IMG/VR virus record: IMGVR_UViG_2734482004_000012
Source of the DNA: a virus
Lineage: Duplodnaviria > Heunggongvirae > Uroviricota > Caudoviricetes
DNA length: 4,122 nt
Strand: one strand, 5' to 3'
The first letter of the stretch is position 1, and each line of letters opens with the position of its first letter. Of this stretch, positions 579 to 3,711 are shown piece after piece. Below the pieces are notes generated by a model. That model did not search any database. It was not told the DNA's origin and saw only the letters and a program-made list of their open reading frames with translations. The position numbers and the translations under genes are program-made.

Positions 579-583
579 CAACA

Positions 584-1403
584 CTATCGCGTTACCCTCT
601 TTAACTGCCGCTCCGCCCATGCCTCTTCAATGTCAAACCGAACCACCAACGTATCGTAAAAGCGTTTCACTGATTTTTTCCACGTATCAAGCGTGATAGC
701 ACTCGTCACTTTGCATATGGCATTAAATGCCTCCGTTGATGGCAGCCTTTCACAGCCACGACCACCACAACGCTGGCAATCTCTGATAACAGGCATACCA
801 CGTTTTACCGACTCTTCACGATGAATGGCGACACCACGCCCACGGCAATCCTTACAGGCGGTGGAAACCTCACCCTTTCCGCCACACTCCGGACAGGCAA
901 CTTTTACCACCTCCCTGACTTTTTTCCATTCTTCCCAGTAAGACGGATACACGCCTTTTGTGCACTTTGCCCACACTGGTGGCTTACCATCCGGATACTG
1001 GATCTTGTTTGTAAAAACCTCGCTTTCAATAAATTTTTTTCCGTGACAGCAAGGGCACTGTTTTTTGCTCGCCGCGCTACGGGCATAATCTTCAAACGCA
1101 TACGAAGCCAATGCGCATCACTACCGGTTTTATTTCTGCCGGAAGTTTTCTCAACGCCGCCACACGATCGCACCGACTGAGTGCATAATCTGCCAGTAAT
1201 TCTGTTGCCCGCGCCCTGTCATTCATACTGATGCCCATTTTCCCCAGGAACGCAGAAAACCCCATCTCAGCCCGATTCTGTGTCATGCCCTGCGCGGCCA
1301 TCACATCAGTGATACTCAGCGCATCTTTTGACGTTGAGGCCGATGCATCGGTCAGGCCAGGGGATTTTGGGGAGTAGTATTTCGGTAAATCTTCCAGTTT
1401 CAT
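584..1403 (-). pseudogene. Q: Antitermination protein Q (lambda Q family), interrupted by an apparent frameshift near 1095-1111
   Basis: ORF 1092-1403 (MKLEDLPKYYSPKSPGLTD...DVMAAQGM...) matches the lambda Q N-terminus as I recall it (MRLESVAKFHSPKSP...DVMAAMGM...). ORF 584-1111 (LASYAFEDYARSAA...CxxC motifs...LDTWKKSVKRFYDTLVV...RVTR) matches the lambda Q C-terminus (LATFAYADYCRSAA...LTQPTWSRTVKPLYDALVV...AVTR). The two parts are in frames offset by one nucleotide and overlap by about 20 nt. The apparent start codon of the C-part is TTG and is really an internal Leu. The ATG at 1401-1403 overlaps the rusA stop (ATGA). Confidence 0.8.
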
Positions 1404-1786: not shown

Positions 1787-2807
1787 TTACCCAAGCACGC
1801 CAGTTGCAAAGGCGTGATCAAGAAAACGAAAAATTAAATCAACCTGAGAACCATGCTTTTCTTCGAACGCCAGAGGATCCGCATGAAGCTCGTTGTGATG
1901 CTCCCGACACAGCGGTAGCGTGAAAATATCGTGAGATTTTGTCCCCATTCCGCCCTGACCATGACCAATCAGGTGATGGGGATCGTCGGCTGGCTTACCA
2001 CAACACGCACACGGCTGTGTCTTCACCCAGCGTGTGTATTTCTCGTTAACCCNNNNNNNNNNGAGACTCAGGATCAACGGCAATGCTGACCACCGTCTCT
2101 TCCTGTGGCGGGTTTTGCTGGTGGGCGTGAGGCAGCGGCGCAAGATTTTTTGTGCGCTGCTTCAGTATGCTGGTGGCGGTCTGCTCTCCCGGTACGATGT
2201 CGCTTTCACGGTACATTGAGCGGATTTTTTCCGCACGCAACCCCAGCGAACGACGTAATACCGCTTCCGGTAGCGCGTCCGCCACCTGATTGCGGACCGC
2301 ACACCAGGATAATTCAGCCAGCGATAATTCCCGTTCCTGCGAGCCATTCATTGCATGGAGTATGACGTCAATCATCCATGCTGACAGGTTTTGATGAGCA
2401 AGTTGCTCGAGTGATTCGGATGTCTGGTCACGCAGCTGGTTGTCGCAGTGCCAGCACAACACCATTGCGCCGGTACCATAACGGTGAATGACGGTTTCGC
2501 TGTGATGATAATCGCCGTGTGGCCACTGGCAGGATTTAATATGGCGCAACAGCCAGTCAGACAATGCACCAGCACCACCAGCAGCACGAATCACCCGTGC
2601 GTTACTGAAAAACGGCAGCAATGTTTTGTCTTCCACTAGCGGCTGGCGAACGGCAGGAACAACCCCGGACGGCAGATTACGCATGCTTTTCGGTTCCGGC
2701 TCCACCAGTACCCGGGTATTGTGGAATACCGGCATGGATTCACGGCCCGGCTTAACGATCACCAGCCCGAGTTCCGGTACCAGAACAGGTCGAAGTAATA
2801 CTCGCAC
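1787..2807 (-). CDS. DUF968-family phage protein with C-terminal HNH-like Cys/His motif (YdfU-like), interrupted by a 10-N gap
   Basis: ORF 2046-2807 (N-terminal about 250 aa) and ORF 1787-2143 (C-terminal, ...NEKYTRWVKTQPCACCGKPADDPHHLIGHGQGGMGTKSHDIFTLPLCREHHNELH...) are separated only by the N-run at 2053-2062 and are most simply one gene of about 340 codons. GTG start at 2805-2807 preceded by GGAGG (plus 2812-2816). The frame offset across the gap is uninformative because gap length is arbitrary. Family assignment is from memory of Qin-type prophage proteins. Confidence 0.65.
2053..2062. other. Assembly gap (run of 10 N)
   Basis: Ten consecutive n characters in the sequence. Confidence 1.
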
Positions 2808-2808
2808 G

Positions 2809-3087
2809 TTACCTCCAGATGCGTTGCTGGAATGTGCGGGACGGACGCGGTGATCGTTCGGAGTAAGGAAGCCTGACGGAGATTATCCAGTGACGATAAT
2901 CGAGGCTGAGGGCTTTCTTAATCTCGTATCCGTGTCTGCGGTAGCACTGAATTAGCCACTCGGCCTGTTCTTCAGTGCATGGGGGATGCTGGAACCAGTC
3001 AGATTTGAAAGTGCGGGAACGCCGCCCGTGCCTGCTGGCAAAGACGGCAGAATCATCAGAATTGTGTAATTTGGTATCGTGCGCCAT
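2809..3087 (-). CDS. Small hypothetical phage protein (92 aa), possibly Rem-like
   Basis: First ATG (3085-3087) downstream of the terminator at 3160-3186. Product MAHDTKLHNSDD...EEQAEWLIQCYRRHGYEIKKAL... looks protein-like. Stop TAA (2809-2811) lies inside the SD of the next gene, suggesting translational coupling. Its own SD is weak. Position between hok and the DUF968 gene matches where rem sits in the E. coli K-12 Qin prophage as I recall it. Confidence 0.45.
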   Translation of the reverse strand: MAHDTKLHNSDDSAVFASRHGRRSRTFKSDWFQHPPCTEEQAEWLIQCYRRHGYEIKKALSLDYRHWIISVRLPYSERSPRPSRTFQQRIWR

Positions 3088-3159
3088 CGGTTGTCTCTGC
3101 TGGCGCAGCAGGTGCCAGTTGTTCAGGCTGGCGTGCGAATTGTAAACCAGAATGCCAGG

Positions 3160-3186
3160 AAAAAACAAAACCCGCCGAAGCGGGTT
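3160..3186 (-). terminator. Rho-independent terminator ending the hok transcript
   Basis: Minus-strand RNA reads AACCCGC-UUCG-GCGGGUU followed by UUGUUUUUU (plus stem 3169-3175 / 3180-3186, loop 3176-3179, A-rich 3160-3168). UUCG tetraloop, GC-rich stem, U tract. Confidence 0.55.
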
Positions 3187-3189
3187 ACG

Positions 3190-3205
3190 TGCGGGTGCGT
3201 TGAGG
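3190..3205 (-). promoter_or_regulatory. 3' fold-back (fbi-like) element of the hok mRNA, complementary to the 5' leader element at 3568-3582
   Basis: Plus 3190-3205 tgcgggtgcgttgagg is the reverse complement of plus 3568-3582 cctcaagcacccgca apart from one extra g. It lies immediately upstream of the terminator hairpin. Confidence 0.45.
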
Positions 3206-3254
3206 ATGCCTGACACATCAGAGGTGGCGAGGGATTTCTCCCTCGCCGGGTCTC

Positions 3255-3410
3255 TTACTCCTCAGGTTCGTAAACTGTGAAGACAGCGACCTCCGTCTGG
3301 CCGGTTCGGATTCGTACCTCGCAGAGGTCTTTCCTCGTTACCAGTGCCGTCACTATGACGGTTAAACAGATGACGATCAGGGCGATTAACATCGCCTTTT
3401 GCTGCTTCAT
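3255..3410 (-). CDS. hokD: Hok/Gef family type I toxin (51 aa), HokD/RelF-like
   Basis: Product MKQQKAMLIALIVICLTVIVTALVTRKDLCEVRIRTGQTEVAVFTVYEPEE has the single transmembrane helix and the conserved RKDLCEV...TGQTEVAVF core of the Hok/Gef family. It is near-identical to HokD/RelF as I remember it. SD AAGGAG 9 nt upstream of the ATG at 3408-3410. Confidence 0.85.
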   Translation of the reverse strand: MKQQKAMLIALIVICLTVIVTALVTRKDLCEVRIRTGQTEVAVFTVYEPEE

Positions 3411-3467
3411 AGCCTGCTTCTCCTTGCCTTTCGGCACGTAAGAGGCTAACCTAGATTTGCCGTTCAT
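3255..3467 (-). CDS. Mok-like in-frame leader ORF (70 aa) overlapping hok
   Basis: ATG at 3465-3467 with GAGG 8 nt upstream. The N-terminal extension MNGKSRLASYVPKGKEKQA is in frame with Hok. It resembles the MokC extension (...KVKEKRAMKQHKAM...) as I recall it. In hok-family loci, Mok translation is what allows Hok translation. Confidence 0.5.
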   Translation of the reverse strand: MNGKSRLASYVPKGKEKQAMKQQKAMLIALIVICLTVIVTALVTRKDLCEVRIRTGQTEVAVFTVYEPEE

Positions 3468-3567
3468 AGATTGAGCCTCAGATTAATGTTAAGCGTCTTG
3501 CAGGACGCGTAATATTAACTGGGGCTTTTCTCTATCTGCCTTTGGTGTTCATGCCTGAGGCAGATAG

Positions 3568-3582
3568 CCTCAAGCACCCGCA
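3568..3582 (-). promoter_or_regulatory. 5' leader (tac-like) element of the hok mRNA, complementary to 3190-3205
   Basis: See the paired element at 3190-3205. It is followed in the transcript by a 9-bp hairpin (plus 3532-3540 ctatctgcc / 3559-3567 ggcagatag). Confidence 0.45.
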
Positions 3583-3621
3583 GCAATTCTACTTAACTCC
3601 CGTCACCTCGCCAATATAAAA

Positions 3622-3711
3622 TCAATCAGAAAGGCGATCCATAAGAACAACAGCAAGACAATAAATTGCCATTACAGCCGCAATAGCTAGCGCACATTTG
3701 AGAACCAGCAC
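3622..3711 (-). CDS. Candidate small hydrophobic protein (29 aa, MLVLKCALAIAAVMAIYCLAVVLMDRLSD)
   Basis: Canonical SD AGGAGG (plus 3717-3722), 5-nt spacer, GTG start at 3709-3711, stop TGA at 3622-3624. 13 of 30 codons begin with G, a first-position bias typical of real coding frames, and the product is a single predicted transmembrane helix. Below the 60-aa threshold of the supplied ORF track. It conflicts with the alternative 96-aa frame 3626-3916. Confidence 0.3.
   Translation of the reverse strand: MLVLKCALAIAAVMAIYCLAVVLMDRLSD

What the first reader, a model, noticed from the sequence alone, without database searches (positions are those of the whole stretch)
3410..3560. Expected Sok-like antisense RNA could not be located confidently
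A hok-type locus normally encodes a short, strongly expressed antisense RNA on the opposite strand, overlapping the mok translation initiation region. On the plus strand I find only a weak candidate promoter (TTGCCT 3424-3429, 17-nt spacer, TAACCT 3447-3452) and a small hairpin (gcgtc 3493-3497 / gacgc 3504-3508) with no clean hairpin-plus-T-run terminator. Either the antitoxin RNA is diverged beyond what I can read by eye, or it is absent and the toxin is controlled another way, or the toxin is silent.
Basis: inference. Interest (0 to 1): 0.45.

Follow-up and report, generated by a model that had tools for sequence, protein, structure and literature searches.

The report
Ordinary Sok antitoxin RNA, now located
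The "missing" antisense antitoxin RNA is present: a conventional ~71-nt Sok gene lies on the plus strand at about 3459-3529, opposite a complete prophage hok toxin gene, so this is an ordinary, already described toxin-antitoxin locus.

Summary
The window is a lambdoid-prophage segment, 99.9% identical to E. coli UTI89. It carries a complete hok/mok/sok type I toxin-antitoxin locus.

Window 3407-3451 is identical to the sokW promoter region of Sakai prophage Sp5, where mutating this -10 box abolished antitoxin activity and a sokW RNA was seen on northern blots (PMC8621323).

The curated K-12 sokC start and the Sp5 sokW probe both align to G3459.

It is followed by UUUUCUCU (3526-3533), so it is an intrinsic terminator. 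This gives a Sok RNA of about 71 nt.

Every intact relative examined has the same layout. In 37 of 40 distinct sequences the hairpin is more stable on the Sok strand.

The hok mRNA (3579 to 3165, minus strand) keeps its leader structure and its 5'-3' fold-back pairing.

Verdict: a conventional, already known locus. Expression in this strain was not measured.

One side observation: the Sok 5' tail is a sharp diversity hot spot among otherwise near-identical loci.

The parts
3424..3429 (+). Sok promoter -35 hexamer, TTGCCT
   Evidence: Sequence. TTGNNN is present at this position in all 105 distinct relatives, and TTGCCT in 61 of them. It lies within the stretch identical to Sp5 oligos YO-406 and YO-597 (PMC8621323).
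3447..3452 (+). Sok promoter -10 hexamer, TAACCT, 17 nt after the -35
   Evidence: Sequence. It is the commonest -10 in the family (43 of 105), and the common variants keep the (T/C)AnnnT form. In Sp5 the identical hexamer was mutated to GAGCCG by primer YO-421 to make the 'promoter-less' sokW, and that construct lost antitoxin activity.
3459..3529 (+). Predicted Sok antitoxin RNA, about 71 nt. The 3' end may lie up to about 3535.
   Evidence: G3459 is the 7th base after the -10. It aligns with the first base of the curated K-12 sokC and with the end of the Sp5 sokW northern probe YO-592. The Sp5 paper gives a 71-nt sokW/hokW complementary region, and 71 nt from G3459 ends at the last U of UUUU. 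By homology with the sokC annotation the end would be about 3535.
3459..3473 (+). Single-stranded 5' tail of Sok (GCCGUUCAUAGAUUG). It is antisense to the mok start codon and to the loop and 5' arm of the target hairpin.
   Evidence: Unpaired in the fold of the 71-nt RNA and unpaired or nearly so in the longer folds. It covers CAT 3465-3467, the complement of the mok ATG. This is the most variable stretch of the locus: pi 0.34 against 0.019 at hok third codon positions.
3474..3526 (+). Sok terminator hairpin.
   Evidence: -29.3 kcal/mol, z -7.7. The core 3475-3525 gives -27.6 kcal/mol on the Sok strand and -18.3 on the hok strand, with 3 G-U pairs on the Sok strand and none on the other. The base stem GCCUC/GGGGC is nearly invariant in 43 aligned relatives.
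3526..3533 (+). U-run of the Sok terminator (UUUUCUCU). U3526 is also predicted to pair with A3474.
   Evidence: Sequence. A matching T-rich tail follows the stem in nearly all aligned relatives.
3255..3410 (-). hok toxin gene (51 aa, 'HokD-type')
   Evidence: ORF within. It is 80% identical to K-12 HokC and matches the Hok family profiles, though below the curated cut-offs. RefSeq annotates identical DNA as hokD.
3255..3467 (-). mok reading frame (70 aa), in frame with hok. ATG at 3467-3465; GAGG ribosome-binding site at 3479-3476.
   Evidence: This is the same in-frame arrangement as K-12 mokC/hokC.
3165..3579 (-). Full-length hok mRNA (about 415 nt): leader 3579-3405, tac 3579-3568, fbi 3205-3191, terminator 3186-3169
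   Evidence: Rfam RF01794 matches end to end at 113 bits against a gathering score of 59. The fold pairs the 5' end with the 3' region (-175 kcal/mol, z -7.45). A terminator is predicted at 3186-3169.
3586..3614 (-). Predicted hok promoter (TTGGCG, 17 nt, TAGAAT)
   Evidence: 9 of 12 matches. It places the start about 7 nt downstream, at the first base of the Rfam match (3579).

Best explanation
The plus strand encodes a conventional Sok antitoxin RNA of a hok/mok/sok type I toxin-antitoxin module. The module sits in the nin/Q region of a lambdoid prophage.

Transcription starts at about G3459 from the promoter TTGCCT-17-TAACCT. It ends at the UUUU(CUCU) that follows the long hairpin 3474-3526, giving an RNA of about 71 nt.

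The single-stranded 5' tail (3459-3473) is perfectly complementary to the hok mRNA across the mok start codon and the loop of the mok-SD/dcb target hairpin.

By analogy with R1 hok/sok and Sp5 hokW/sokW, the mechanism would be as follows (inferred, not tested here). Sok pairs with the 3'-processed, refolded hok mRNA. This blocks mok translation, and therefore the coupled hok translation, and marks the duplex for RNase III. When Sok synthesis stops, for example on prophage induction or loss, the unstable Sok decays. The stable hok mRNA is then translated and Hok damages the inner membrane.

Shown here: the sequence anatomy, homology, family-wide conservation and strand-specific structure. Inferred: expression, half-lives and phenotype in this strain.
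For: 1. Identity with a tested promoter. Window 3407-3451 matches Sp5 oligos YO-406 and YO-597 with no mismatches. The mutagenic primer YO-421 changes exactly TAACCTA to GAGCCGG. That mutant lost antitoxin activity and was partly rescued by sokW supplied in trans. A sokW RNA was detected by northern blot, with a 71-nt complementary region reported (PMC8621323).
2. Start site. The curated K-12 sokC start and the boundary of the sokW probe both align to G3459.
3. Terminator. Hairpin 3474-3526 folds at -29.3 kcal/mol, z -7.7, followed by UUUUCUCU.
4. Family-wide layout. Of 105 distinct relatives, all keep the conserved -35 and about 17-nt spacing. All but nine give a 48-73-nt RNA with a mostly single-stranded 5' tail, a hairpin and a U-run. 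The nine exceptions are IS-disrupted, cut off by a contig end, or carry a tail variant the search pattern did not cover. Alignment.
5. Strand specificity. The hairpin is more stable on the Sok strand in 37 of 40 distinct sequences (mean -18.2 against -10.4 kcal/mol). In most of them there are 2-4 G-U pairs on the Sok strand and none on the hok strand. The U-G pair in the base stem is present in 42 of 43 sequences.
6. The target is intact. The hok and mok ORFs are complete, the leader scores 113 bits against Rfam, tac/fbi pairing forms in the fold, and the mok-SD/dcb hairpin forms.
7. The same 471 nt occur at 99% identity or more in 187 E. coli records.
Against: No RNA data exist for this strain or for this exact allele.

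The promoter is weak by consensus (7 of 12) and is not found by the generic scan. Sites of that quality are common by chance.

The bases between the -10 and the start, and Sok positions 2-15, differ from Sp5 (YO-422 has 8 mismatches in the window). These could change promoter output or RNA stability.

The 3' end is uncertain by about 6-10 nt.

The relatives compared are phylogenetically related, so the 37-of-40 count and its p-value overstate the number of independent observations.
Confidence: 0.9

Rival explanations
1. The Sok gene is present in sequence but not functional in this allele. The weak promoter, combined with the altered start-proximal sequence, would give too little Sok. Hok would then be held off only by the mRNA fold-back (tac/fbi), or the locus would be effectively silent.
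For: The promoter has 7 of 12 consensus matches and no extended -10. Positions 3454-3474 differ from the tested Sp5 allele. No expression data exist for this allele.
Against: The -35, spacer and -10 are base-for-base identical to the functional Sp5 promoter. Several loci from independent contigs carry exactly this tail allele with an intact hok, and the 471-nt locus is at least 99% identical in 187 records. An intact toxin without a working antitoxin would be hard to maintain. The invariant G at the start and the invariant CAT inside a hypervariable stretch argue for continuing selection.
Confidence: 0.06
2. The toxin is controlled in another way and has no antisense RNA, as in the K-12 relBE-hokD arrangement. 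The RefSeq name 'HokD' would suggest this.
For: RefSeq names the identical protein HokD and annotates no Sok RNA here. True relBE-hokD loci exist among the relatives; L090 has relB, relE and then hokD, with no Sok promoter.
Against: The window has no relBE upstream of hok. It has the full 175-nt leader, mok, the Sok promoter and the Sok terminator. In relBE-hokD loci the homology breaks inside the -35 region (CTCCT|GTCAACGC...). In the window it continues.
Confidence: 0.01
3. The plus-strand hairpin and hexamers are only the mirror image of structures selected on the hok mRNA strand. They would carry no function of their own.
For: The same DNA encodes the hok leader, which is itself highly structured and conserved. 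Any hairpin is also a hairpin on the complementary strand.
Against: The hairpin is systematically stronger on the Sok strand, and G-U pairs sit on the Sok strand, where the complement would have A-C mismatches. The stem is followed by a U-run only on the plus strand. Promoter mutation and trans-complementation in the Sp5 homologue show that a plus-strand product acts as the antitoxin.
Confidence: 0.03

Closest known systems
hokW-sokW of Sakai prophage 5 (Stx2 phage Sp5), E. coli O157:H7 (Takada et al. 2021, PMC8621323)
   Same: Both lie in lambdoid prophages and have the same architecture. The Sok -35, spacer and -10 are identical. Both give a predicted RNA of 71 nt with the same terminator hairpin, apart from one loop base and one G-U to A-U change. 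The hok leader and the mok/hok arrangement are the same.
   Different: The discriminator and the Sok 5' tail differ: AGATTTGCCGTTCATAG here against ACATGTGTTCAGCATGG in Sp5. That is 6 mismatches under the 30-nt sokW probe, so recognition specificity may differ. The Hok C-terminus also differs (Sp5 primers encode ...DYESEK; the window has ...VYEPEE). The prophage backbone is different (UTI89-type, not an Stx phage).
hokC (gef)/mokC/sokC of E. coli K-12
   Same: Hok is 80% identical. mok is in frame with hok. The Sok start aligns base for base, and the base stem GCCUC/GGGGC and the tail CUUUUCUCUAU are the same.
   Different: The SokC hairpin is 18 nt shorter (33 nt against 51 nt), so by the same rule the RNA is 53 nt rather than 71 nt. 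The promoter is TTGACC/CACTCT. The locus is chromosomal and next to IS186 in K-12.
hok/sok (parB) of plasmid R1, and the R1-like plasmid loci in Klebsiella and Enterobacter
   Same: All the named elements are present: tac, fbi, mok SD/dcb, mok-hok coupling, a Sok promoter overlapping dcb, and a Sok with a 5' tail, hairpin and U-run (PMC9841398 for the R1 model).
   Different: Hok identity is only about 40%. The -10 is TATCCT and the Sok hairpin is short (GUGGGUUAAUGAAAAUUAACUAC). The role is plasmid maintenance rather than a prophage function.
hokD (relF) of the K-12 Qin prophage, in the relBE-hokD operon
   Same: The toxin differs by one residue, A46V. This is why RefSeq labels the window's gene hokD.
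   Different: K-12-type hokD sits directly behind relE and lacks the leader, mok and the Sok promoter. The window has all of them, so it is the complete form of the module, not the truncated one.

Membership tests
hok/sok type I toxin-antitoxin family (R1 parB paradigm; Hok/Gef toxins) | A small (~50 aa) hydrophobic Hok/Gef toxin ORF | tested here: met
   The 51-aa ORF at 3255-3410(-) is 80% identical to HokC, with the conserved C, T, TR, L, E, R and EVA positions. It matches the NCBIfam Hok profiles at E 6e-12, though below the curated cut-off of 73 bits. Identical DNA is annotated hokD in RefSeq.
hok/sok type I toxin-antitoxin family (R1 parB paradigm; Hok/Gef toxins) | An overlapping upstream mok reading frame with its own ribosome-binding site, through which hok is translated | tested here: met
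   The 70-aa ORF at 3255-3467(-) has GAGG 7 nt upstream of its ATG. Translational coupling itself was not tested.
hok/sok type I toxin-antitoxin family (R1 parB paradigm; Hok/Gef toxins) | A conserved structured hok mRNA leader | tested here: met
   Rfam RF01794 matches 3579-3405(-) end to end at 113.3 bits, against a gathering score of 59.
hok/sok type I toxin-antitoxin family (R1 parB paradigm; Hok/Gef toxins) | Long-range 5'-3' fold-back (tac/fbi) that closes the full-length mRNA | tested here: met
   In the minimum-energy fold of 3579-3165, the first 12 nt pair with CCUCAACGCACCC near the 3' end.
hok/sok type I toxin-antitoxin family (R1 parB paradigm; Hok/Gef toxins) | An antisense promoter on the opposite strand, within the dcb region just downstream of the mok start | tested here: met
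   TTGCCT-17-TAACCT at 3424-3452 is conserved in position across 105 distinct relatives. It is identical to the functionally tested Sp5 sokW promoter.
hok/sok type I toxin-antitoxin family (R1 parB paradigm; Hok/Gef toxins) | A short Sok RNA: a single-stranded 5' tail antisense to the mok translation start, then a hairpin and a U-run | tested here: met
   The start is homologous to the curated sokC start.
hok/sok type I toxin-antitoxin family (R1 parB paradigm; Hok/Gef toxins) | Sok is expressed and unstable, neutralises Hok, and the duplex is cut by RNase III | not testable with these tools
   Shown for the Sp5 homologue (northern blot, promoter mutant, trans rescue, partial dependence on RNase III and Hfq) and for R1. 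Not shown for this allele.
relBE-hokD (K-12 Qin prophage type) | hok lies immediately downstream of relE, with no mok, no leader and no Sok promoter | tested here: not met
   The window has the full leader, mok and the Sok promoter. Genuine relBE-hokD loci such as L090 diverge from it inside the -35 region.

The most novel reading that the evidence does not exclude
The 5' recognition tail of Sok, together with the complementary mok codons 2-5 and the target-hairpin loop, is a hot spot of diversification. It would generate mutually orthogonal hok/sok alleles, so that several lambdoid prophages in one cell, plus the chromosomal hokC, can each run an independent toxin switch without cross-neutralisation. 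The window carries one of at least ten such alleles.

Support. Among 39 near-identical loci, nucleotide diversity is 0.34 in 3459-3473 against 0.019 at hok third codon positions. The start G and the mok CAT stay invariant inside the variable stretch. In three of the four genomes that held two or more prophage-type copies, the copies had different tails; in the fourth they were identical.

Alternative. The stretch may simply be the only part of the leader that is not constrained by overlapping structures, with old alleles shuffled by recombination.
Probability: 0.4. Interest if true: 0.35.

Novelty: already known. Interest (0 to 1): 0.1.

Why it matters
It matters little for discovery. The finding dissolves into a textbook hok/mok/sok module whose prophage version, hokW-sokW, has already been characterised.

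Its practical value is for annotation, in three ways.
- RefSeq labels this gene hokD and annotates no Sok RNA here. That label invites the wrong inference that the locus is the Sok-less K-12 relBE-hokD form.
- The Rfam family named 'sok' matches the hok-leader strand. Automated strand calls for Sok made from that model would point the wrong way.
- The window gives usable coordinates for Sok in the UTI89-type prophage: 3459 to about 3529.

If the hypervariable tail reflects selection for orthogonality, it would be a compact natural example of antisense specificity evolving among co-resident prophages.

Tried and rejected
- The generic sigma-70 and terminator scan found neither the Sok promoter (7 of 12 is below its threshold) nor the Sok terminator, probably because the stem is long and interrupted. 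It did find the hok promoter and the hok terminator. Its silence on Sok therefore reflects the scan's criteria, not absence.
- Rfam also gave a plus-strand 'sok' hit at 3521-3643 (19.9 bits, E 0.22). I rejected it. It is far below the gathering score and rests on the near-palindromic tac hairpin.
- The sub-threshold Rfam hits (ceN48, P26, Fungi_SRP, CsrC) were dismissed as chance.
- RNAalifold on the 43-sequence alignment recovered only the invariant 6-bp base stem and no compensatory changes. The inner helices differ in length and MAFFT did not align them. I therefore folded each sequence on its own and compared the two strands.
- NCBIfam found nothing for the 29-aa ORF at 3622-3711(-) or for the 135-aa ORF at 2809-3216(-).
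- One regular-expression attempt to extract the tails returned nothing and was redone.
- I did not build a custom covariance model. The alignment and the Rfam hit already establish homology of this DNA, and a model of the Sok strand would match by construction.
- The co-residence test could not be extended to the 4,741 E. coli genomes that carry the locus, because the search tool lists only one place per record.

Full report
**What the window is.** All the genes read on the minus strand. They are a Q-like antiterminator, RusA, a DUF968 protein, a small unnamed ORF and then a Hok-family toxin. The window is 99.9% identical to a prophage of E. coli UTI89. The 471 nt around the finding occur at 99% identity or more in 187 complete E. 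coli records, and at lower identity in 4,741 of 5,426 genomes. They also occur in about 100 phage records, where the gene is variously called MokW, HokD, 'host killer' or gef.

**Checking the observation.** The promoter is indeed poor by consensus: 4 of 6 plus 3 of 6 matches. A standard scan does not report it. Sites of comparable quality occur about 1.7 times per kb in this window. On their own, then, the hexamers prove nothing.

Folding the plus strand shows that gcgtc/gacgc is the tip of a long hairpin from A3474 to U3526. Its energy is -29.3 kcal/mol (z = -7.7; none of 200 shuffles as stable). It is followed directly by UUUUCUCU.

**Locating Sok by homology to tested and curated loci.** Takada et al. 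(PMC8621323) characterised hokW-sokW of Sakai prophage Sp5. They reported four things:
- a sokW RNA detected on northern blots;
- a 71-nt region of sokW complementary to the hokW 5' UTR;
- loss of antitoxin activity when the sokW -10 box is mutated;
- partial rescue by sokW supplied in trans.

I mapped their oligonucleotides onto the window.
- YO-406 and YO-597 match 3407-3428 and 3422-3451 with no mismatches.
- The mutagenic primer YO-421 covers 3428-3453 and changes TAACCTA to GAGCCGG.
- The sokW probe YO-592 maps to 3459-3488, so its boundary falls on G3459, the 7th base after the -10.

Independently, the curated sokC RNA of K-12 (16952-17010, plus strand, opposite hokC/mokC) aligns with its first base on G3459. 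Its last base falls about six bases beyond the UUUU. Seventy-one nucleotides from G3459 end at U3529, the last U of the run. I therefore place Sok at 3459 to about 3529, and at most about 3535.

**Family-wide anatomy.** I collected 160 loci that encode Hok relatives, 80 from viral contigs and 80 from one genome per species, using a Hok protein alignment that is blind to the Sok side. On the strand opposite hok, every intact locus has the same order of parts:
- TTGNNN as the -35 (TTGCCT in 61 of 105 distinct sequences);
- a spacer of about 17 nt;
- a -10, which in the common variants has the form (T/C)AnnnT (TAACCT in 43 of 105);
- in most loci a G seven bases further on;
- a 5' tail, mostly single-stranded, that contains the complement of the mok ATG in nearly all loci;
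- a hairpin whose base is GCCUC/GGGGC;
- CUUU(U)CU.

The predicted RNAs are 48-73 nt long. The window's hairpin is 18 nt longer than in SokC (51 against 33 nt), and all of the extra length is at the tip.

Loci that break this pattern are recognisable derived forms. In relBE-hokD loci, homology stops inside the -35 region (L090 encodes RelB, RelE and HokD). Other loci carry an insertion element inside the Sok hairpin.

**Is the plus-strand structure selected for itself?** A hairpin in DNA is a hairpin on both strands, and the hok leader is itself conserved. I therefore compared the two strands for 40 distinct hairpin sequences. The Sok-strand version is more stable in 37 of them (mean -18.2 against -10.4 kcal/mol). 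In most of them it holds 2-4 G-U pairs, and the complementary strand holds none; on that strand those positions become A-C mismatches. For the window the values are -27.6 against -18.3 kcal/mol.

In the aligned base stem, the U-G pair is present in 42 of 43 sequences. These sequences are related, so the counts are not independent, but the direction is consistent. RNAalifold found no compensatory changes because the inner helices, which differ in length, were not aligned.

**The toxin side is intact.**
- The hok (51 aa) and mok (70 aa, in frame, GAGG 7 nt upstream) ORFs are open.
- The leader matches Rfam RF01794 end to end at 113 bits.
- A promoter, TTGGCG-17-TAGAAT, places the mRNA start at 3579, and a terminator lies at 3186-3169.
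- The 415-nt mRNA folds with its first 12 nt paired to CCUCAACGCACCC near the 3' end. This is the tac/fbi fold-back of the R1 model (model summarised in PMC9841398).
- The mok-SD/dcb hairpin forms. The first bases of Sok are complementary to its loop.

Nothing suggests a silent or decayed toxin.

The Rfam family called 'sok' hits the window on the minus strand. In K-12 it likewise hits the hokC and hokB strand, over about 150 nt, while the curated sokC and sokB genes lie on the opposite strand inside those intervals. The model ends in the hok AUG. It therefore identifies the locus but not the strand or the limits of Sok.

**Mechanism.** The sequence anatomy is shown here; the dynamics are inferred from R1 and Sp5. 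Sok is made constitutively and pairs through its 5' tail with the processed hok mRNA at the mok start. This prevents mok translation, and hence hok translation, and exposes the duplex to RNase III. When Sok synthesis stops, Hok is made. In Sp5 this happens on prophage induction and speeds lysis and phage release. The same role is plausible here but untested.

**Side observation.** Among 39 distinct loci that align over the whole module, nucleotide diversity is 0.34 in the Sok tail (3459-3473) and 0.24 in the six bases before it. It is 0.019 at hok third codon positions and 0.026 in the Sok promoter. G3459 and CAT 3465-3467 are invariant inside the variable stretch.

At least ten discrete tail alleles occur. 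In three of the four genomes that held two or more prophage-type copies, the copies carried different alleles; in the fourth they were identical. PMC9841398 reports that the chromosomal Sok RNAs of K-12 do not protect against R1 hok, so lack of cross-talk between distant loci is known. Whether the fine-scale allelic variation seen here reflects selection for orthogonality is open.

**Verdict.** This is a conventional, already described kind of locus, and the antitoxin gene is present and locatable. The remaining uncertainty is experimental only: expression of this allele, and the exact 3' end.

Noticed in passing
window 3453-3474 (+): There is a sharp diversity hot spot in the Sok 5' tail, which is also mok codons 2-5 and the target-hairpin loop. 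Diversity (pi) is 0.34 against 0.019 at hok third codon positions among 39 near-identical loci. G3459 and CAT 3465-3467 are invariant inside it. At least ten discrete alleles occur. In three of the four genomes with two or more prophage-type copies, the co-resident copies differ.
   Followed up: partly
window 3405-3579 (-); L083 602-754 (-); L084 667-818 (-): The Rfam family RF01794, named 'sok antitoxin', matches the hok mRNA leader strand and ends in the hok AUG. The curated K-12 sokC and sokB genes lie on the opposite strand inside those matches. A strand call for Sok based on this model would be wrong.
   Followed up: yes
L001 (UTI89) 5106-5261, equivalent to window 3255-3410: RefSeq annotates only 'hokD' here, with no mok and no Sok RNA. 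Yet the locus is the complete hok/mok/sok form, not the relBE-linked, Sok-less hokD of K-12.
   Followed up: yes
window about 1109-1110 (antiterminator gene, 582-1403, minus strand): Relative to UTI89, the window lacks two bases (AT). This splits the Q-like antitermination gene into two ORFs, 1092-1403 and 584-1111. It is either a pseudogene or a sequencing error.
   Followed up: partly
window 2053-2062: A run of 10 N lies inside the DUF968 gene. It replaces 36 nt that are present in UTI89 and breaks the reading frame. It looks like an assembly gap or a masked stretch.
   Followed up: partly
window 3165-3246 (-): There is a sub-threshold match to Rfam isrK, a Salmonella prophage sRNA (27.8 bits against a gathering score of 50; E 0.003). 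It covers the hok mRNA 3' end: a hairpin, the fbi element and the terminator. It may only reflect a shared terminator-like structure.
   Followed up: no
window 3622-3711 (-): An unannotated 29-aa hydrophobic ORF (MLVLKCALAIAAVMAIYCLAVVLMDRLSD, GTG start) lies just upstream of the hok promoter on the same strand. It has no NCBIfam match. Conservation among relatives collapses beyond about 3600, so this may mark the edge of the mobile hok/sok module.
   Followed up: partly
L085, L129, L132, L142, L161, L163 (Sok hairpin); L059, L090, L095, L113, L123, L148 (-35 region): Two kinds of disruption recur among relatives. In the first, an insertion-sequence end (TGTACTGACCCCAAAAAGTTGGACAG...) sits inside the Sok hairpin just after GCCTCG. 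In the second, everything upstream of the -35 is replaced by relBE, including on a Klebsiella plasmid contig.
   Followed up: partly
L082/L091 (Sp5-type) and L083/L103 (hokC): The predicted SokW and SokC RNAs share their first nine bases (GUUCAGCAU), although they belong to different loci. Cross-recognition between a prophage Sok and the chromosomal hokC is conceivable.
   Followed up: no
L086, L104, L109, L120-L122, L140, L156: Near-identical enterobacterial hok loci sit on short contigs in assemblies labelled Veillonella, Acinetobacter, Xanthomonas, Ferruginibacter, Streptomyces, Oscillibacter, Dysgonomonas and Vagococcus. These are most likely contaminating E. coli or plasmid DNA, or binning errors.
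   Followed up: no
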